Origin: an uncultured virus (IMG/VR IMGVR_UViG_3300005336_000020)
Lineage: Duplodnaviria; Heunggongvirae; Uroviricota; Caudoviricetes
IMG/VR virus record: IMGVR_UViG_3300005336_000020
Length of the DNA stretch: 20,000 bases
Strand: one strand, 5' to 3'
The notes beneath the pieces are model-generated. The model ran no database searches and was not told the DNA's origin. It saw only the letters and a list, made by a program, of their open reading frames with translations. The stretch's first letter is position 1, and every line of letters starts with the position of its first letter. Below, in pieces: positions 717 to 6,769 of this stretch. A program made the position numbers and the translations under genes.

Positions 717-2408
717 TCACTGCATCCACGGCCACGGCGCGTTCTTGCCCTGCTCCAGGAGCTGGATCAGACCGAAGCTCGCATCCGACAGACCGCCGAA
801 GCAGTGCCGGTTCGTGCCGCCGGTCTCCAGGATGGAACCGGCGTAGCCCGCCATGTTCCACAGGTAGACCGGGACGCTCTTCGGGATCAGGTCGTCGATC
901 CGCGTCTCCGGCATGCCGTACGTGCGCCCGCCCATGTTCGACGGGAGCCAGCCCGGCCGCGACTGCTCGTCCGTGACGATCACGACGCGGTTGAACTCGC
1001 TCGTGAAGTTGTCCTTCACGGCACGCGGGATGTCGGTCCCGTTGATCGACGGGCCGAAGCTCTCGACGATCTTCAGGACGCTCGCCCCGCGCGGCACGTC
1101 GACCGGGCGCGAACCGGCGCCGCCACCCCGGCTGTTGTAACCGCTGTACGCCTGGTCGCCGCCGAACTCGACGAGCTTGGCGTCCTGCGCCTTCACGGCC
1201 AGCGCCGCACCGAAGAGCGCCGCCTGGTCGGCCAGCGTGATGTCGCTCTTGTTCGGCGTCGAACCCCACATGCCCGGGAACATCGACGGGCTGCGGTCCA
1301 CGAGGATCAGGGTCTTCCCCCGCAGGGTCGGAACCAGCTCCAGGGAGCCCGCCAGGCCCCGCTCCAGGGCGTTGCCCCAGCGCAGCGACGACAGGGCGCG
1401 GTAGGCCGACAGGAAGCGGTACGGGAAGAGCCGGGCCTTCCGCACCCGCTCGCCGTCCGAGAGCACCTTGGCCACGATGTCGGCCGAGGCGTCGGAGATA
1501 CCCTCCTCGTCGAAGTTGCGCAGGTTCTTGATCAGCGCACCCGGCGCCATGGTCGGGATCATCGCCTCCCACAGCAGCTTCTTCTCGACCTTGCCACCCA
1601 GCTCGGACAGGACGTCCTCCCAGGTGAGACCGGCATCCTTGAGCACCTGCGGCGCGATGAGACCCGAGCCGTAGATGTACTCCGCCGACGCCTTCTTCGG
1701 GACGCTGGCCGCCGCCTGCCGCCACTCGCGCTGGTTGCGCGTCATCGACAGGCTCGGCGTGATCGCGCCGCCGTGGCCGTGGCGCCGGTCGAGGATCAGC
1801 CGGAACAGGTCCGACTGCCACTGGGCGCTCGGCACCGGGTGGACGATGTCGATCACGTCGGCGAAGCGGTACGCCCGGCGGGCCGAGTCGTACTTGGCGT
1901 ACGAGTACTCCGTGTACAGACGCGTCACCGCGCGCTTCAGGCCGCGCTTGACCGCCTGGTAGCGCTTCGGCCACGCCTTGCCCGCGATCGAGAACCAGTA
2001 CGCGATGAACTCGCCCGGCTCGTCGGCCCGCTGGAGCACGCCGTCGACCATGTCCTCGACACCGTCGTAGCGGTGCTGGTCGCAGAGCGTCTTCGCCGCC
2101 TCGGCCGCCGCGAGCAGCGACGTGGTGCGCATGTAGCCGTCGGTGCGCAGCCACGGAAGCATGTGCGTGACGTGCCACTGCTCCAGCAGGGCGGTGGCGT
2201 GCAGGAGGTCGACGTAGCGCTCGTTGCGGTCGTGAGCGCGCTCGTAGAACGTGTCCTTGGTGACGAGGTTGGACACCGAGACCAGGTAGAGGTCCGACAG
2301 CGGGCTGCGGGTGAAGCCGCTTGCGCCCTCGAACGTCTTGGTCGTGCCCTCTGTCGTCACCTTCGAGGTGACGCGCGGCTTCGTCGTCGGCTTGTTGAAC
2401 GTTGCCAT
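717..2408 (-). CDS. rsr: Ro60/Rsr-family RNA-binding protein (TROVE domain + C-terminal vWA), 563 aa
   Basis: N-terminal TFEGASGF...FYE, RADEPGE, ALIKNLRNF, RLFPYRFLSAY; vWA MIDAS motifs LVDRSPSM, GTD, IVTDEQ; YLWNMAGY. True start is probably ATG 2408 (MATFNK) after a purine-rich RBS. The ORF-track start at 2573 lies inside an ncRNA. Confidence 0.92.
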   Translation of the reverse strand: MATFNKPTTKPRVTSKVTTEGTTKTFEGASGFTRSPLSDLYLVSVSNLVTKDTFYERAHDRNERYVDLLHATALLEQWHVTHMLPWLRTDGYMRTTSLLAAAEAAKTLCDQHRYDGVEDMVDGVLQRADEPGEFIAYWFSIAGKAWPKRYQAVKRGLKRAVTRLYTEYSYAKYDSARRAYRFADVIDIVHPVPSAQWQSDLFRLILDRRHGHGGAITPSLSMTRNQREWRQAAASVPKKASAEYIYGSGLIAPQVLKDAGLTWEDVLSELGGKVEKKLLWEAMIPTMAPGALIKNLRNFDEEGISDASADIVAKVLSDGERVRKARLFPYRFLSAYRALSSLRWGNALERGLAGSLELVPTLRGKTLILVDRSPSMFPGMWGSTPNKSDITLADQAALFGAALAVKAQDAKLVEFGGDQAYSGYNSRGGGAGSRPVDVPRGASVLKIVESFGPSINGTDIPRAVKDNFTSEFNRVVIVTDEQSRPGWLPSNMGGRTYGMPETRIDDLIPKSVPVYLWNMAGYAGSILETGGTNRHCFGGLSDASFGLIQLLEQGKNAPWPWMQ

Positions 2409-2482: not shown

Positions 2483-2660
2483 TGTGTGGGGTGCCCGGCC
2501 AACAGATAGGCCCCGGTGGTTCTTTCGAACCTTCCTCGACCAACGCTCTGCCAATTGAGCTATCCACGAGCACGCTCGCAGATCAGGACTCGAACCTGAA
2601 ACATTTGGTTCCACTGTGAAGTAACCGTTGCCAAGACGCTCCGGGCACCTCACCCACACA
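2483..2660 (-). ncRNA. yrlA: Y RNA, YrlA-like, with complete permuted tRNA-like domain (copy C)
   Basis: 5' and 3' ends pair (UGUGUGGG..GGUGCCCGG / CCGGGCACC..CCACACA). Internal order is T arm UCAGG-UUCGAGU-CCUGA (2583-2599), closed acceptor-like hairpin (2563-2582), then D arm UAGCUCAAUUGGCAGAGC (2545-2562). T-before-D order next to a Ro60 gene is the YrlA hallmark. Confidence 0.85.
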
Positions 2661-2665
2661 CCGAG

Positions 2666-2831
2666 TAACAGAAGATCCAGAGGAGTCACCGGCCAACAAT
2701 GCGAGCCCCGGTGTCTGCCAGTTATGCCATGCGTCGGCAGCGACGGGATTCGAACCCGCCCTCAGTTTCTTTTTCCAGAAGAAGTAACCGTTGCTCAAAA
2801 CGCTCCGGTAACCCTTCTGGATCTTCCGTTA
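2666..2831 (-). ncRNA. Y RNA-like element with T arm and degenerate D/acceptor region (copy B)
   Basis: Long terminal stem GAAGAUCCAGA/UCUGGAUCUUC. Same conserved core CCGGAGCG..ACGGUUACUUC..CACCGGG..UGUUGGCCGG as copy C. T arm GCGGG-UUCGAAU-CCCGU at 2743-2759. Confidence 0.75.
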
Positions 2832-2911
2832 TGCGCCCCGGCCAACAAGATGGCGCCCGGTGTGTTCTCCGCATGATGAAGTAACCGTTCGCACTAACGC
2901 TCCGGGGTGCA
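2832..2911 (-). ncRNA. Minimal Y RNA-like element lacking the tRNA-like domain (copy A)
   Basis: Terminal stem UGCACCCCGG/CCGGGGCGCA and the same conserved core motifs, with only about 15 nt between UUACUUC and CACCG. Begins at the predicted TSS. Confidence 0.7.
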
Positions 2912-3707: not shown

Positions 3708-4454
3708 TCAGACGCGGACGATGCCCTGCTGGCGGGCCTGCGCCAGCCAGGTGGGGAACTCGGTCATGAGCCGGTTGTACAGGGTGCTGTCGGTCATCGT
3801 GGTGGGATCGGTGCCCACCGCGAAGAAGTCCGAGTTGTCGATCGGCCGGTACTGCGGGACCGGGATGTCGTCGAGGCGCTGGAGGAAGCCCAGGCCGTCC
3901 TCGTCGTCGTAGTCGTACGGGCGGTCCTCGCCGAAGCCCACGAACTGCCAGAAGATCGGCAGCGTGGCGTACTGGCAGATCCGCTGGGCGGCGGCCTTCT
4001 TGTCCCACGGCGATCCGTCGGTCTGGAAGATGACGTAGGCGGGGACGCTCTTGCCGCTGGACTGGTAGTGCCGCACCACGGCGTCCATGGCGACGGTGTA
4101 GTCCGTGCCGCCCATCTGACCGAGCTTGGCGTGCGCCTTGGCGATCTTGCCCTGGTGCTGCCCGAGCACCAGCTCGTCCATGCCCTTCAGGGTGTGGTCG
4201 AAGAACACGACCGGCACACGGCCGTCGTCCTCGAAGTGGGCCGCCATGCCCAGAATCCGCTCGGCGAAGTACTGGACGTGGCCGTGGCGGTAGTGACCGC
4301 GATGCGGGAAGTCCATCGAACCGGAACGGTCGAGCACCAGGTAGACGGCCGCCCGCTCGCCCTCCAGCCCGTGCTTGTTCGCCGCGAACCCGGCCTTCTG
4401 GTACGGCCTCTCCAGGTCGGGAGCGATGTCCCGGATTTTCTCTACGGTGATCAT
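3708..4454 (-). CDS. vWA domain protein, TerF-C-terminus-like (toxic cation/tellurium resistance-type)
   Basis: MIDAS motifs VYLVLDRSGSM, MGGTDY, VIFQTDG, plus LPIFWQFVGFG, FLQRLDD, R.IDN.DFF and LMTEFPTWL, typical of the vWA-TerF-like family. Confidence 0.85.
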   Translation of the reverse strand: MITVEKIRDIAPDLERPYQKAGFAANKHGLEGERAAVYLVLDRSGSMDFPHRGHYRHGHVQYFAERILGMAAHFEDDGRVPVVFFDHTLKGMDELVLGQHQGKIAKAHAKLGQMGGTDYTVAMDAVVRHYQSSGKSVPAYVIFQTDGSPWDKKAAAQRICQYATLPIFWQFVGFGEDRPYDYDDEDGLGFLQRLDDIPVPQYRPIDNSDFFAVGTDPTTMTDSTLYNRLMTEFPTWLAQARQQGIVRV

Positions 4455-4480
4455 TCTGTCTCTTCAGACCTTTCCGAGGG

Positions 4481-4669
4481 TCAGCGCTTCTTGACGGGTC
4501 GGGCCCACTGCTCCGGCGGAACGCCGCTCATCCTGGCCTGCGGGCGCTCGGGAACCTCCGTGCGCGCGAGCTGACTGGAGCCGTAGCTGCCGATGGAGTG
4601 GGCCTGCGTTGCACTGGGGCCCGAGTCCACCTGCTCCGATGCGGCATCCAGGGCGTCGGCGTCAGACAT
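4481..4669 (-). CDS. Small hypothetical protein (62 aa, MSDADALDAA...)
   Basis: ATG 4669 follows AGGAAGG; 3' part of ORF 4481..4792. Confidence 0.55.
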   Translation of the reverse strand: MSDADALDAASEQVDSGPSATQAHSIGSYGSSQLARTEVPERPQARMSGVPPEQWARPVKKR

Positions 4670-4799
4670 ATGCACCTTCCTGCCAGGCGAGCAGAACCTG
4701 CTGCTCGCGGTACTCGTCCAGTTCCTCTCGCGAGAGGAATGTGATTCCGTCCTCGCGGATGACGACCGGCGCCTCCGCCTTCTTCTCCTCACCGTTCAC
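4662..4799 (-). CDS. Possible 45-aa protein (MNGEEKKAEAPVVIREDGITFLSREELDEYREQQVLLAWQEGAYV)
   Basis: Plausible codon usage and an 8-nt ATGTCTGA overlap with the next gene. No RBS, as it starts 2 nt after a tRNA-like element. Confidence 0.4.
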   Translation of the reverse strand: MNGEEKKAEAPVVIREDGITFLSREELDEYREQQVLLAWQEGAYV

Positions 4800-4800
4800 G

Positions 4801-4919
4801 TGTGCACGACGGGATTCGAACCCGTGGGCTATCCAGAGATTCCCAGCTCCAGCCAGCCGCCTGCCTCCACCCCTGGGAGGGATTCAGCAAGCCCCTTTAG
4901 GCCGCTCAGGCACATGCAC
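4801..4919 (-). ncRNA. tRNA-like RNA (Ser/Leu-type D arm) with anticodon/variable region replaced by a long insert
   Basis: Acceptor GUGCAUG/CGUGCAC+A, D arm CCUGAGCGGCCUAAAGG, T arm ACGGG-UUCGAAU-CCCGU. About 68 nt lie between the D and T arms with no canonical anticodon arm in register. Total 119 nt. Confidence 0.7.
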
Positions 4920-5003
4920 CGCCGGACCCGTTAGTCCGGCCCAGGTTCCGCTTTCAGGAGTTCTACGCGGAACCGTCCGATTCATCTTCCACTCCAACCG
5001 GAG

Positions 5004-5088
5004 AGCCCATGACGGGATTTGAACCCGCGTCTCCATCCGCTGGCATGATCCAGTAGGACGATGTGCTTGGCCGCTACACCACATGGGC
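5004..5088 (-). ncRNA. tRNA-like RNA with a 19-nt anticodon loop (extended anticodon arm)
   Basis: Acceptor GCCCAUG/CAUGGGC, D arm GUGU-AGCGGCCAA-GCAC, anticodon stem UCGUC/GAUGG enclosing CUACUGGAUCAUGCCAGCG, variable AGAC, T arm GCGGG-UUCAAAU-CCCGU. Confidence 0.75.
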
Positions 5089-5242
5089 GCTCGGTGTCCT
5101 GCCGATCACCGAGCGGGCGGATTCCGTGGCGCCGGGTGCCACCCGGCGGTGCCTCCTCCACGAAACCCTCTTTGGCGTGCACCCCGCCGCCGACTTTCTC
5201 AGCCGAAAGCGGGGGTAAAGCGGACCTGTAATTCAGGTCCAG

Positions 5243-5316
5243 TTGGCAGGGAGAGATTTGAACTCTCGACCTCGGGATTATCAGTCCCGTGCTCTAACCA
5301 TCTGAGCTACCTGCCA
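5243..5316 (-). tRNA. tRNA-Ile (GAT)
   Basis: Perfect cloverleaf TGGCAGG TA GCTC AGATGGTTA GAGC A CGGGA CT GAT AA TCCCG AGGTC GAGAG TTCAAAT CTCTC CCTGCCA A. CCA is not encoded. Confidence 0.95.
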
Positions 5317-5427
5317 GTGATCCATCCGGAAGCGTGTCGGACCGCCTCCGGTGGATCGGTGCGCCGAGCCGGGCCGTAACCGGCTCGGAGCGTTTCGCCC
5401 GGGTGTCGGATTCCCGAACTAAGTGAA

Positions 5428-5457
5428 ACTCTACCGGGTGTTGCTGGCCTAGGTCAA
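5428..5457 (-). promoter_or_regulatory. Sigma70/HrdB-type promoter for the tRNA/ncRNA operon
   Basis: -35 TTGACC (5452-5457), 18-nt spacer, -10 TAGAGT (5428-5433). Confidence 0.75.
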
Positions 5458-5467
5458 CCGATCCGGG

Positions 5468-6769
5468 TCAGACCGCGAGCCGGAAGTTCTCCCCGTCCGC
5501 AACGATCAGGCCCTCGCGGGTGAACGACCGCAGGAAACGACTGGCCTGCGTCGCCCCGCAGCCCGTGTGGGTCGCCAGGAGAGCCGGGGTCCAGACGGCC
5601 TGCGGCTGGCTCCGCAGCACCCGCAGCGCGACATCCCGGGGGTACTTGCCACGGCCGTGGTCCGGGTGCGCCAGAAGGGCCACCATCTCGTCCGTGACGG
5701 TCCAGGTGCGCACGAGGTTGGGGCCGTGCACGTTGAGGTAGCCGTGCCCACGGAAGCGGGGGCCGCGCGGAAGGAAGTGCGGTTCCACTCCGGCGCCCGG
5801 ACCGAGCACGGTGTCGGTGTTCTGCGGGGTGTTGACGCGAAGGCAGAACGAGAAGTCGAAGTTCGTGCGGATGCCCGAGGTGATGCCCCGGTCGTCGCCC
5901 GAGCGGAGCGGGTTCTGGGTCATCCACATGATGATGATCTCGCGCGAGCGGCCCTGGCTGGACAGCTCGGTGAGCTTCTGCATCACGGACTTGTCGGGGC
6001 CTTCGAGGAAGGCGTACTCCTCGTCGCCCTTCGGCGCCTTGCCGCGCCGCTTGTCCTCGTCGATCACGGCCTGAAGGACGGAGTAGCCCTCGTCGATCGG
6101 AATGAGCCTGCGCGGGCCGAGCTTCAGATCCCACTTGGAGATCCCGAGCTTGGCCATCTGGGCGGCCCGGTCCTCCATTCGGGCGTGCTCGCGCTCGATC
6201 ATCTCGATGATCTCTTCATGGGTCACGGCGCAGGTGCAGATGCCGCGCCAGACCGTGGCCTCCTCACCCTTGCCGTCGATGAAGCCGCCCAGTTCCTCGT
6301 CGGGGTGGACGACCGCGCGGGCCATGAGGGCGCGCGTGGACCAGCTCTTCCCGGAGCCGGAGGCGCCGCCGACCAGCAGGCGTTCGTTGCGCGGGACGTC
6401 GACCTCTTCACCCGTGACCGTGTCGAGTCCGAGCGTGGTGATGTCGGGGTGCCAGAACATGTCCAGCTCGTCGGTGATGTACCGGGTACGAACCGCGAAC
6501 AGCACGCGGGAGGACCGGCCGCCGGGGGACAGGTCGCTCAGGTGCTCGTCGAGCACGTCGAGCATGGCGCGTATGGCCTGGTGCTTGACACGCAGCTCCT
6601 TGAGCATGTCGCGCCCGTCGAGCTTGAGCACGGCGACAACGCCGGACTCGGTCAGCTTCGCGGAGTCCAGGTTCACGCCGCGCAGGCCGCGCGCCTTCGC
6701 CTGCGGGTTCCAGTACTCAGGCGTGAGCAGGTCCAGCAGGCGCAGTTCCTCTTCAGTCGCTACCAGCAC
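5468..6769 (-). CDS. FtsK/SpoIIIE-family ATPase, similar to Streptomyces TraB conjugal DNA translocases
   Basis: Walker A LLVGGASGSGKS, IDGKG, Walker B LIPIDEG, arginine-finger QGRSREI..MTQNP, RTNF, GHGYL; C-terminal wHTH-like segment. Confidence 0.85.
   Translation of the reverse strand: MLVATEEELRLLDLLTPEYWNPQAKARGLRGVNLDSAKLTESGVVAVLKLDGRDMLKELRVKHQAIRAMLDVLDEHLSDLSPGGRSSRVLFAVRTRYITDELDMFWHPDITTLGLDTVTGEEVDVPRNERLLVGGASGSGKSWSTRALMARAVVHPDEELGGFIDGKGEEATVWRGICTCAVTHEEIIEMIEREHARMEDRAAQMAKLGISKWDLKLGPRRLIPIDEGYSVLQAVIDEDKRRGKAPKGDEEYAFLEGPDKSVMQKLTELSSQGRSREIIIMWMTQNPLRSGDDRGITSGIRTNFDFSFCLRVNTPQNTDTVLGPGAGVEPHFLPRGPRFRGHGYLNVHGPNLVRTWTVTDEMVALLAHPDHGRGKYPRDVALRVLRSQPQAVWTPALLATHTGCGATQASRFLRSFTREGLIVADGENFRLAV

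What the first reader, a model, noticed from the sequence alone, without database searches (positions are those of the whole stretch)
4801..4919. 119-nt tRNA-like RNA whose anticodon/variable region is replaced by a large structured domain
Seen: intact acceptor, D and T arms flank about 68 nt that can close with GGGCU/AGCCC and contain UCCCAG/CUGGGA or CCUCC/GGAGG helices. A vestigial GGGGC-UU-GCU-GA-AUCCC (Ser-GCU-like) arm exists but competes with the D stem. Like YrlA it keeps the D/T elbow and changes the anticodon side, but it is unpermuted. Inference: a second elbow-preserving tRNA mimic. Two such RNAs side by side suggest selection rather than pseudogenisation.
Basis: partly seen in the sequence, partly recalled or inferred. 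Interest (0 to 1): 0.72.

Follow-up and report, generated by a model that had tools for sequence, protein, structure and literature searches.

The report
Anticodon-less class II tRNA mimic
A small group of large Streptomyces phages keeps a gene for an RNA shaped like a long-armed tRNA whose anticodon loop is replaced by a closed rod, so it cannot read codons and most likely works as a tRNA look-alike whose partner is still unknown.

Summary
The 119 bases (window 4919..4801, minus strand) are real and under selection. The window is Streptomyces phage Frankenweenie (cluster BM), where this stretch is unannotated.

Eight distinct variants from BM-type phages and metagenome contigs keep one fold. 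95.6% of pair cells are standard pairs, and 14 of 43 pairs show changes on both sides; slid controls give 35-46%. RNAalifold finds the same fold on its own.

The fold is not one large insert. It is an unpermuted class II cloverleaf:
- a 7-bp acceptor stem, a D arm and a T arm;
- a 12-bp variable arm;
- an anticodon arm turned into a rod: a 6-bp stem, a 4x4 internal loop, a 4-bp helix and the hexaloop UYCCAG.

There is no 7-nt anticodon loop. The hexaloop can pair with the variable-arm loop (CUGGR).

Rfam tRNA, tRNA-Sec, tmRNA and YrlA models do not call it. The Ro60-binding motifs of the phage's own Y RNAs are absent.

It lies in a promoter-led unit: tRNA-Ile, a second anticodon-less mimic, a structured spacer, this RNA, then a small ORF that starts 1 nt after it.

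Best reading: a processed, non-decoding tRNA decoy or bait. The function is inferred, and expression is not shown.

The parts
4801..4919 (-). Whole 119-nt tRNA-shaped RNA (idx 1 = 4919, idx 119 = 4801, discriminator A; no encoded CCA)
   Evidence: Own covariance model R1 scores it 126.7 bits. Not called by ARAGORN or by Rfam tRNA.
4913..4919 (-). Acceptor stem, 5' strand (idx 1-7); pairs with 4802-4808
   Evidence: 7 pairs, 100% of cells paired; pair 7-112 is G-C in 5 variants and A-U in 3.
4802..4808 (-). Acceptor stem, 3' strand (idx 112-118)
4894..4910 (-). D arm (idx 10-26): 3-bp stem plus G13/A23 opposition, with a loop carrying A14, G15 and GG
   Evidence: Pair 12-24 is U-A in 4 variants and C-G in 4, which fixes the register. 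The same D-arm string occurs in tRNA-Tyr, tRNA-Ser and tRNA-Leu genes of many genomes.
4859..4892 (-). Anticodon-arm 'rod' (idx 28-61): 6-bp stem GCYUGC/GCAGGC, internal loop UGAA/GGRG, 4-bp helix, hexaloop UYCCAG
   Evidence: Outer stem and internal loop: 18 of 20 columns invariant. Inner helix 38-41/48-51: 3 of 4 pairs changed on both sides. Predicted independently by RNAalifold.
4873..4878 (-). Hexaloop UCCCAG (idx 42-47), complementary to the variable-arm loop
   Evidence: Duplex energy -9.4 to -4.9 kcal/mol across variants. Pair 43-78 is C-G in 4, U-A in 1 and unpaired in 3.
4827..4858 (-). 12-bp variable arm (idx 62-93) with loop CUGGGAAU (idx 74-81 = 4839-4846)
   Evidence: 6 of 12 pairs changed on both sides, 89.6% of cells paired, and a recurrent non-standard opposition at 67-88.
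4809..4825 (-). T arm (idx 95-111), loop UUCGAAU
   Evidence: 5 pairs, 100% of cells paired, 2 with double changes. This is the only part seen by Rfam tRNA (14.2 bits).
4920..5003 (-). Structured spacer between the two mimics (three hairpins)
   Evidence: RNAalifold on 6 sequences: 31 pairs, 9 with double changes.
5004..5088 (-). Neighbouring class I tRNA mimic: the anticodon loop is replaced by UA/C + CUGG-6nt-CCAG
   Evidence: Rfam tRNA 44.6 bits with a 17-nt insert. 26 pairs, 100% of cells paired, 8 with double changes. GenBank labels it tRNA-OTHER.
5243..5316 (-). Ordinary tRNA-Ile(GAU), first gene of the unit
   Evidence: Rfam 75.3 bits; ARAGORN.
5428..5457 (-). Promoter-like site TTGACC-18-TAGAGT upstream of tRNA-Ile
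   Evidence: 1 site found against 0.1 expected. Both hexamers are invariant in 4 lineages.
4662..4799 (-). Small ORF-A (45 aa); its GTG start lies 1 nt after the RNA's discriminator
   Evidence: The juxtaposition and the protein are conserved in all 7 loci examined. Annotated as gene 153.

Best explanation
This is a functional, non-decoding class II tRNA mimic of BM-cluster Streptomyces phages.

Shown:
- It has an unpermuted cloverleaf with a canonical acceptor stem, D arm, T arm and tertiary-pair nucleotides.
- It has a 12-bp variable arm joined to the T stem by a single nucleotide, as in tRNA-Ser.
- Its anticodon arm is capped into a nearly invariant rod, so no anticodon exists.

Inferred pathway:
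1. It is transcribed from the conserved promoter ahead of tRNA-Ile, as part of one precursor: tRNA-Ile, mimic 1, spacer, mimic 2, ORF-A, ORF-B.
2. It is cut out by RNase P and RNase Z and receives CCA from the host enzyme, like the phage's own CCA-less tRNA-Ile.
3. It then acts in trans as bait for a factor that reads the body of class II tRNAs (elbow, acceptor end, long variable arm) rather than the anticodon.

The most likely target is a host tRNA-directed defence or toxin effector, or else a synthetase. The rod, possibly locked to the variable-arm loop by a 4-6-bp kissing contact, would serve as the specific handle and keep the RNA off the ribosome.
For: Fold:
- 8 distinct variants, 43 pairs, 95.6% of cells paired, 14 pairs with double changes, 0 of 500 shuffles as good; slid controls 34.6-45.6%.
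- RNAalifold gives the same helices.

Not a decoder:
- No 7-nt loop in any variant.
- With introns allowed, ARAGORN gives Ala(GGC), Arg(GCG) or Phe(GAA) with 'introns' of 24, 25 or 44 nt depending on the variant. No consistent anticodon results.

Selection on the rod: 18 of 20 columns of its base are invariant, against 11 of 32 in the variable arm. Satis and JustBecause share only 74.4% ANI genome-wide (PMC6687918, passages).

Body type:
- The best matches of model R1 in 151 Actinomycetota genomes are ordinary tRNA-Ser (5 of 8 looked at) and tRNA-Tyr (3 of 8), at 51 bits or less. Family members score 127-141 bits.
- The one-nucleotide V-arm/T-stem junction matches the tRNA-Ser genes printed.

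Expression unit: the promoter is conserved, and no terminator-like site lies on the minus strand in 4300-5600.

Context:
- A second covarying anticodon-less mimic lies 84 nt upstream.
- Ro60 (TROVE) and three Y-RNA-like units lie 2-4 kb downstream.
- An Rnl2-type RNA ligase sits in the same place in JustBecause.

Precedents:
[quoted passage not shown] - YrlA is cut by RNase P and receives CCA (PMC4201824, passages).
Against: - No partner has been identified.
- Nothing shows the RNA is made or processed. The only RNA-library signal is one low-depth contig over 4850-5034 that spans the spacer and could be DNA.
- The 8 variants come from about four lineages of one phage cluster, so independent events are fewer than the cell counts suggest.
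- Discriminator A differs from the G of the tRNA-Ser genes seen.
- A 12-bp variable arm is about twice the natural length and may not fit proteins that read natural arms.
- The loop-loop contact is weak in the JustBecause lineage (C-A mismatch, -4.9 kcal/mol).
- Single-sequence folding is no better than shuffles.
- The decoy idea rests on analogy, not on any test made here.
Confidence: 0.5

Rival explanations
1. It is an accessory of the phage Ro60/Y-RNA particle. A free tRNA-like module would compete with, or be a substrate of, whatever the tRNA-like domain of YrlA recruits, or would bind Ro60 through the rod.
For: - All 7 phage records with the RNA also carry a Ro-like gene 2-4 kb downstream on the same strand.
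- Three Y-RNA-like units lie just upstream of Ro60.
- In other actinophages Ro60 also sits among tRNA genes.
Against: - The Y-RNA stem motifs of this phage (AACGGTTACTTC, 3 exact copies; TGTTGGCCGG, 3 copies) all lie in 2495-2889, none in 4801-5100.
- Rfam YrlA gives no hit at E up to 10 in 4600-5400.
- Ro60 is only 38% identical between Frankenweenie and Satis, while the adjacent FtsK-like protein is 88% identical.
- 16 of 23 Ro-bearing phage records lack the RNA.
- Five other Ro-bearing records score 34.8 bits or less with R1.
Confidence: 0.15
2. It is mainly a cis-acting processing signal (tRNA punctuation). RNase P/Z cuts at the mimic would free and stabilise the downstream ORF-A/ORF-B message, whose GUG start lies 1 nt after the discriminator and has no room for a Shine-Dalgarno site.
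For: - The arrangement A-C-GTG-AAC is identical in all 7 loci examined, and ORF-A is conserved as a protein.
- Leaderless mRNAs are common in actinobacteria (recalled knowledge).
- Hairpin H3 ends 1 nt before the RNA's 5' end.
Against: - Any tRNA would serve this purpose. It does not explain the invariant rod, the doubled variable arm, or the loss of the anticodon in two adjacent RNAs.
- RNase Z would leave a 1-nt leader, not a true leaderless end.
- In Satis the annotators chose a start 25 nt further down.
Confidence: 0.12
3. It is a chargeable, non-ribosomal aminoacyl carrier. SerRS (or LeuRS/TyrRS) would charge it through the variable arm and acceptor end without needing an anticodon, and the aminoacyl group would go to a non-ribosomal acceptor.
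For: - It has a class II body with an intact acceptor end and elbow.
- The variable arm is important for SerRS binding (PMC11541572, discussion passage).
- The phage encodes no class II tRNA of its own among the 13 Rfam tRNA hits.
Against: - No FemAB-type transferase was found in 3 of 3 BM genomes searched, and no CCA-adding enzyme. No synthetase was looked for beyond these.
- Discriminator A, not G.
- The arm is twice the natural length.
- The neighbouring mimic has no variable arm yet shares the same design.
Confidence: 0.1
4. It is a decayed tRNA-Ser/Tyr pseudogene, or a real tRNA carrying an intron in or near the anticodon loop.
For: - JustBecause annotates the 3' part as a 72-nt tRNA-Ser.
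- ARAGORN calls tRNA-Ser(GGA) in 3 of 8 variants, using the variable arm as the anticodon arm.
- The string CU-GCU-GA is present.
Against: - 14 pairs are kept through double changes, including 9 inside the supposed junk.
- The GCU-type arm is paired in only 62.5% of cells with no double change.
- Intron-mode calls disagree on isotype among variants.
- No splicing system for such inserts is known in bacteria (established knowledge).
Confidence: 0.03
5. Structural rival: the 68 nt form one domain closed by helix 27-30/90-93, with UCCCAG/CUGGGA as an ordinary helix. This might be an alternative conformer.
For: - 27-30/90-93 is paired in 96.9% of cells, with one U-A to C-G double change between the closest pair of variants.
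- 42-47/74-79 is paired in 92.9% of cells.
Against: - It excludes helices 28-33/56-61 (100% paired) and 62-73/82-93 (6 pairs with double changes).
- RNAalifold does not choose it.
- Bases 27-30 and 62-65 are near-identical strings, so pairing with 90-93 comes for free.
Confidence: 0.1

Closest known systems
YrlA-type Y RNAs (Rfam RF02553; Chen et al. 2014, PMC4201824, passages read)
   Same: Both are non-decoding RNAs that keep the D/T elbow of tRNA. YrlA occurs in actinobacteria and their phages and is encoded near Ro60. A YrlA-like unit is in this very window (2537-2607, 30.8 bits).
   Different: YrlA is circularly permuted (T arm, capped acceptor-like stem, D arm), and its ends form the Ro60-binding helix. 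This RNA is unpermuted, has free acceptor ends, a class II variable arm and a capped anticodon arm. It lacks the Ro-binding motifs.
Deinococcus radiodurans Yrn1, as modelled in PMC4201824 (passages)
   Same: It is described there as modelled in tRNA orientation, with a 5-bp 'anticodon' stem and a 6-nt rather than 7-nt loop.
   Different: Yrn1 has no full D arm and no V arm, and it binds Rsr through its terminal stem.
Bacterial class II tRNAs (tRNA-Ser, tRNA-Tyr)
   Same: D arm string, G15/C48-type positions, GG in the D loop, UUCGAAU T loop, and a long variable arm. They are the best cellular matches of model R1.
   Different: The mimic has no anticodon loop. Its variable arm is 12 bp, against 3-7 bp in the genes seen. 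Cellular tRNAs score 51 bits or less with R1 against 127-141 for the family. The Rfam tRNA model gives the mimic 14.2 bits against a cut-off of 29.
Phage tRNAs that counter tRNA-cleaving defences (T5/T6 tRNA-Tyr against retron-Eco7/Septu; PMC13096335, passages; PMC11555353, listing and abstract only)
   Same: These are phage-encoded class II tRNA bodies proposed to act as decoy or supplement against effectors that read the variable loop.
   Different: They are working tRNAs with anticodons. This RNA could only be a decoy. No link to any defence system was tested here.
The neighbouring mimic at 5004-5088
   Same: Same operon and same design: a 6-bp stem, a small internal loop, a 4-bp helix and a 6-nt loop in place of the anticodon loop. 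It is the next-best match of R1 (33-45 bits).
   Different: It is class I (4-nt variable region). The tip of its arm is dispensable, since it is deleted to a GUG triloop in the Satis lineage.

Membership tests
tRNA (Rfam RF00005) | Full-length match at or above the gathering score of 29 bits | tested here: not met
   Only a local T-arm match at 4809-4826, 14.2 bits, E 8.9. Nothing at the gathering threshold.
tRNA (decoding) | 7-nt anticodon loop on a 5-bp stem, giving one consistent anticodon | tested here: not met
   The arm ends in a 4-bp helix plus a hexaloop in all 8 variants. ARAGORN finds nothing in 5 of 8 and a 72-nt partial call in 3 of 8. In intron mode the isotypes disagree.
Class II tRNA body | 3-bp D stem with 13/22 purine opposition, long paired variable arm, elbow nucleotides (GG in the D loop, UUCGAAU T loop) | tested here: met
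   The best R1 matches in 151 genomes are tRNA-Ser and tRNA-Tyr.
YrlA / Y RNA (RF02553) | Permuted order: T arm, capped acceptor-like stem, D arm | tested here: not met
   The order here is acceptor, D, rod, V, T, acceptor. No YrlA hit at E up to 10 in 4600-5400.
YrlA / Y RNA (RF02553) | Terminal helix that binds Ro60 | tested here: not met
   The stem motifs shared by the phage's three Y-RNA-like units occur only at 2495-2889. Actual Ro60 binding is not testable with these tools.
tRNA-Sec (RF01852) | 8/5 acceptor/T arrangement, 6-bp D stem, UCA anticodon | tested here: not met
   No hit in 4600-5400 at E up to 10. The acceptor is 7 bp and the D stem 3 bp.
tmRNA (RF00023) | tRNA-like domain plus a tag reading frame | tested here: not met
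   No Rfam hit. ARAGORN in tmRNA mode found 0 of 8.
Intron-bearing tRNA | Removing one insert restores a standard anticodon loop with the same anticodon in relatives | tested here: not met
   Ala(GGC), Arg(GCG) or Phe(GAA), with inserts of 24, 25 or 44 nt, depending on the variant.
Substrate of RNase P, RNase Z, CCA-adding enzyme, aminoacyl-tRNA synthetases | Cleavage, CCA addition or charging | not testable with these tools
   Inferred from the intact acceptor/T domain and from the YrlA precedent (PMC4201824).

The most novel reading that the evidence does not exclude
The RNA is a pure RNA decoy against tRNA-directed immunity. It would be a CCA-bearing class II body with an exaggerated variable arm that traps effectors which pick tRNA-Ser or tRNA-Tyr by the variable arm. 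Candidates are AbiEii/MenT-type nucleotidyltransferases and Septu/PtuAB-type nucleases. The capped anticodon arm would keep it out of translation. Together with its class I neighbour it would form a two-decoy cassette beside the phage's Ro60/Y-RNA repair module. This would be the first anti-defence tRNA look-alike that is not itself a working tRNA.
Probability: 0.2. Interest if true: 0.85.

Novelty: new variant of a known kind. Interest (0 to 1): 0.62.

Why it matters
Known bacterial and phage tRNA mimics with a role (YrlA, the tmRNA tRNA-like domain) are permuted or truncated. This one is a complete, unpermuted class II cloverleaf in which only the decoding tip has been disabled and the variable arm enlarged. 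It has been kept through many compensatory changes, and it sits next to a second mimic of the same design.

If it is a decoy or bait, it points to host factors in Streptomyces that read tRNA bodies. It would also give a simple genetic handle (delete one small gene) to find them.

In practice, GenBank records of this phage cluster label parts of these RNAs as tRNA-Ser, tRNA-His, tRNA-OTHER or tRNA-Pro. This inflates the tRNA counts and hides a distinct RNA class that is absent from Rfam 15.

Tried and rejected
- **Single-sequence folding.** z = -1.03, which is not informative in 64% G+C.
- **RNA evidence.** One run on record as RNA holds contigs over 4469-4573, 4850-5034 and 5111-5352 at depth 4-8. 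These are contigs, may be DNA, and show no ends. The other three runs are probably DNA or only matched tRNA-Ile. This counts neither for nor against expression.
- **Distant homologs.**
  - R1 hits in L010 (17.7-20.9 bits) turned out to be neighbouring units of a YrlA array.
  - Nothing above 34.8 bits in five other Ro-bearing phage records, nor above 50.9 bits in 151 Actinomycetota genomes. That sample had no genome over 5.5 Mb, so probably few or no Streptomyces.
  - The pattern scan of GTDB genomes gave 0 hits.
  - One metagenome hit (L017) was a chance match.
- **D-arm pattern scan.** The 80 loci held carry tRNA-Tyr 24, Ser 14, Leu 14, and 23 others, counting every tRNA in each locus and not only the matched one. 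This shows a generic class II D arm, not an isotype.
- **Phage-encoded partners.** PF02388 (FemAB) and PF01743 (CCA enzyme) were found in 0 of 3 BM genomes. PF09414 (RNA ligase) was found in 1 of 3, JustBecause only.
- **ORFs around the RNA.** ORF-A, ORF-B and gene 150 gave no meaningful Pfam or PHROG family; gene 149 gave no PHROG family, and its Pfam scan at E up to 0.01 was also empty.
- **Earlier notes of this scan.** None for this genome by place or by sequence.
- **Literature.** Searches found no paper describing this RNA. The two genome announcements only count tRNAs.
- **Not looked at.** The supplements of PMC4201824 (phage YrlA lists). They predate these phages but could list related designs.
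- **Not used.** No protein structure, complex or homology search, because no protein claim depended on one.

Full report
**Identity of the window.** A 1101-base query around the finding matches Streptomyces phage Frankenweenie (OQ921725.1, 200,048 bp) at 100%. Window position equals record position minus 89,956. The phage belongs to cluster BM (PMC10652959, passages). The flagged 119 bases lie on the minus strand (4919..4801). In the GenBank record they are unannotated, lying between gene 153 and 'tRNA-OTHER' gene 154.

**What the standard tools see.**
- ARAGORN finds three genes in the window: 2574-2664 'tRNA-Pro', 5003-5088 'tRNA-???' and 5242-5316 tRNA-Ile. It finds nothing at 4801-4919.
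- Rfam at gathering thresholds finds only tRNA-Ile (75.3 bits) and the neighbour (44.6 bits, with 17 nt where 5 loop positions belong).
- With permissive thresholds on 4600-5400, the flagged stretch gives only a local T-arm match (14.2 bits, E 8.9). It gives no tRNA-Sec, tmRNA or YrlA match.

**Check of the observation.** Folding the single sequence is not better than chance: z = -1.03, and 28 of 200 shuffles fold at least as well. The evidence therefore had to come from relatives.

**Relatives found.**
- blastn with 131 bases finds the element in 7 of 50,697 phage records, all BM-cluster Streptomyces phages.
- Pattern scans find it on 4 IMG/VR contigs.
- They find it on 4 metagenome contigs, plus one chance match, L017.
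- They find it in 0 GTDB genomes.
- After removing identical copies, 8 distinct sequences remain. They fall into about four lineages, so the events counted below are fewer than the cells.

**Structure.** I drew a fold by hand from the alignment, and RNAalifold then gave the same helices independently. On the 8 sequences:
- The 43 pairs (37 nested plus 6 loop-loop) are standard in 95.6% of cells.
- 14 pairs show a change on both sides.
- No shuffle out of 500 reaches the observed paired fraction or covariation score.
- Sliding the 3' partners by 1-3 columns drops pairing to 34.6-45.6%.

**Helices (index 1 = window 4919).**

| Element | Positions | Notes |
|---|---|---|
| Acceptor stem | 1-7/112-118 | |
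| D stem | 10-12/24-26 | U12-A24 in four variants, C-G in four, which fixes the register |
| Outer stem of the rod | 28-33/56-61 | GCYUGC/GCAGGC |
| Internal loop | UGAA/GGRG | symmetric, 4x4 |
| Inner helix | 38-41/48-51 | 4 bp; 3 of 4 pairs doubly changed |
| Hexaloop | 42-47 | UYCCAG |
| Variable arm | 62-73/82-93 | 12 bp; 6 pairs doubly changed; recurrent non-standard opposition at 67/88 |
| Spacer nucleotide | C94 | single |
| T stem | 95-99/107-111 | |

This is a complete, unpermuted class II cloverleaf. Its anticodon loop has been replaced by a capped extension, and its variable arm is about twice the natural length.

**Conservation is uneven.**

| Region | Invariant columns |
|---|---|
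| Base of the rod | 18 of 20 |
| Variable arm | 11 of 32 |
| Acceptor stem | 9 of 14 |

For comparison, whole-genome ANI between two carriers is 74.4% (PMC6687918). This pattern argues for sequence-specific recognition of the rod.

- GGGCU/AGCCC, taken as 27-30/90-93, is pairable in 96.9% of cells with one double change. It excludes two better-supported helices, and it comes almost for free because bases 27-30 and 62-65 are near-identical strings.
- The 'vestigial Ser-GCU arm' is paired in 62.5% of cells with no double change.
- CCUCC is not conserved.
- UCCCAG/CUGGGA joins the hexaloop to the variable-arm loop. Four pairs are invariant. The fifth is C-G in four variants, U-A in one (a compensatory change in Satis) and C-A in three. 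Duplex energies run from -9.4 to -4.9 kcal/mol. I treat this kissing contact as plausible but unproven.

**It is not a decoder, an intron-bearing tRNA or a pseudogene.**
- No variant has a 7-nt loop on the anticodon arm.
- With introns allowed, ARAGORN accepts the full-length body but names Ala(GGC), Arg(GCG) or Phe(GAA) with inserts of 24, 25 or 44 nt, depending on the variant.
- The 72-nt 'tRNA-Ser' annotated in JustBecause arises because the variable-arm loop (CU-GGA-GA) looks like an anticodon loop. ARAGORN repeats this call in 3 of 8 variants.
- The variable-arm triplet differs between lineages (GGG against GGA) on the same body, which would be incompatible with decoding.

**Body type.**
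- My covariance model R1 scores family members at 127-141 bits and the neighbouring mimic at 33-45 bits.
- In 151 Actinomycetota genomes it scores nothing above 50.9 bits, all hits being 82-93 nt.
- The eight best loci there are tRNA-Ser (5) and tRNA-Tyr (3).
- The D-arm string is shared with tRNA-Tyr, tRNA-Ser and tRNA-Leu genes across bacteria and archaea.
- The single nucleotide between variable arm and T stem matches the tRNA-Ser genes printed. Discriminator A matches tRNA-Tyr rather than tRNA-Ser.
- The phage's own main tRNA cluster has no class II tRNA.

**Surroundings, from upstream to downstream on the minus strand.**
- A promoter-like site, TTGACC-18-TAGAGT (5457-5428), with 1 found against 0.1 expected. 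Its hexamers are invariant in four lineages.
- tRNA-Ile(GAU).
- The neighbouring mimic. Its 26 pairs are 100% standard, 8 with double changes. Its anticodon loop is replaced by CUGG-6nt-CCAG, and in the Satis lineage by a bare GUG triloop.
- An 84-nt spacer with three covarying hairpins.
- The 119-nt RNA.
- One nucleotide later, the GTG start of a conserved 45-48-aa ORF, followed by a 62-aa ORF.
- No terminator-like site lies on this strand in 4300-5600.
- Further downstream lie a vWA-TerF-like protein and three Y-RNA-like units. Each unit is bracketed by AACGGTTACTTC and TGTTGGCCGG: 3 exact copies of each, against 0.01 and 0.06 expected. One of them matches Rfam YrlA at 30.8 bits.
- Last comes a TROVE/Ro60 gene at 717-2408.
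- JustBecause has an Rnl2-type RNA ligase next to Ro60.

The RNA therefore sits in an RNA-surveillance and repair neighbourhood, but it lacks the Ro-binding module.

**The link to Ro60 is loose.**
- Ro60 is 38% identical between Frankenweenie and Satis, while the FtsK-like neighbour is 88% identical.
- 23 phage records carry a related Ro60 and only 7 carry the RNA.
- Five other Ro-bearing records have no family member.

**Mechanism.**
- Shown: a selected tRNA-shaped fold without an anticodon, a conserved promoter, and a conserved position.
- Inferred: excision by RNase P and RNase Z and CCA addition, as shown for YrlA in M. smegmatis (PMC4201824, passages), then action in trans.

I favour bait or decoy for a factor that reads the class II tRNA body, at about 0.5. 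Such factors exist. [quoted passage not shown] A decoy with no anticodon would not disturb decoding.

Against this reading:
- No partner was found and no expression has been shown.
- The arm is twice the natural length.
- The discriminator is not Ser-like.
- The case is one of analogy.

Rivals are a Ro60 accessory (0.15), a processing signal for the ORF-A message (0.12; it may well be an additional role), an aminoacyl carrier (0.10; no FemAB or CCA enzyme in 3 BM genomes) and a pseudogene or intron-bearing tRNA (0.03).

**Novelty.**
- Rfam 15 has no family for it.
- Five full-text searches and the two genome announcements do not describe it.
I saw it only after my own fold was made, and it is not independent evidence.
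- tRNA mimicry by phage and bacterial RNAs is known, so I rate this a new variant of a known kind.

**Caveats.**
- One phage cluster, about four lineages.
- The Actinomycetota sample probably lacked Streptomyces.
- The supplements of PMC4201824 were not read.
- No RNA-level data.

Noticed in passing
window 2495-2900 (-): There are three Y-RNA-like units upstream of the Ro60 gene, each bracketed by AACGGTTACTTC and TGTTGGCCGG. The unit at about 2504-2629 matches Rfam YrlA (2537-2607, 30.8 bits, E 1e-4). GenBank gene 148 'tRNA-Pro(tgg)' (window 2574-2664, 91 nt) overlaps it and is not seen by Rfam tRNA, so it is probably a misread YrlA tRNA-like domain.
   Followed up: partly
window 4920-5003 (-): The spacer between the two mimics folds into three hairpins kept by compensatory changes (31 pairs, 9 with double changes in 6 sequences). 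JustBecause carries a 19-nt insert in the loop of the second hairpin. GGAGU/ACUCC could add a pseudoknot. Its role is unknown.
   Followed up: partly
window 4797-4801 (-): The GTG start of conserved ORF-A lies 1 nt after the discriminator of the RNA in all 7 loci examined, leaving no room for a Shine-Dalgarno site. An RNase Z cut could create a near-leaderless message.
   Followed up: partly
window 5428-5457 (-): A promoter-like site TTGACC-18-TAGAGT, together with about 25 nt downstream of it, is invariant in four phage lineages. It is followed by a roughly 100-nt leader containing a long hairpin, ahead of tRNA-Ile.
   Followed up: partly
L003 5402-5470 (Satis) and L002 5328-5399 (JustBecause): The GenBank 'tRNA-His' of Satis-type phages is the neighbouring mimic with a GUG triloop on a 5-bp stem. 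The 'tRNA-Ser' of JustBecause is the 3' part of the 119-nt family. Both are likely annotation artefacts that inflate the tRNA counts.
   Followed up: yes
window 717-2408 (-) against L003 2031-3644: Ro60 is only 38% identical between Frankenweenie and Satis, while the nearby FtsK-like protein is 88% identical. The Ro60 gene seems to have been exchanged or to evolve much faster than its surroundings.
   Followed up: partly
record OQ921725.1 70465-70537 (outside the window; L163 30466-30538): This is annotated as a 73-nt 'tRNA-SeC(tca)'. A class I-sized tRNA with a UCA anticodon would be a UGA suppressor rather than a selenocysteine tRNA. A SpoT-like ppGpp protein (gene 133) is also encoded in this part of the genome.
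   Followed up: no
window 3708-4454 (-): A 248-aa protein with a vWA-TerF-like domain (PF10138, E 3e-54) lies between the mimics and the Y-RNA/Ro60 block. It is absent at this place in JustBecause and Satis.
   Followed up: no
L010 4800-5850: An uncultured phage contig carries at least five tandem YrlA-like units upstream of its Ro60 gene (three Rfam YrlA hits at 31.7-36.9 bits, and repeated CCGAAGTG...ACGGATACTTC motifs).
   Followed up: partly
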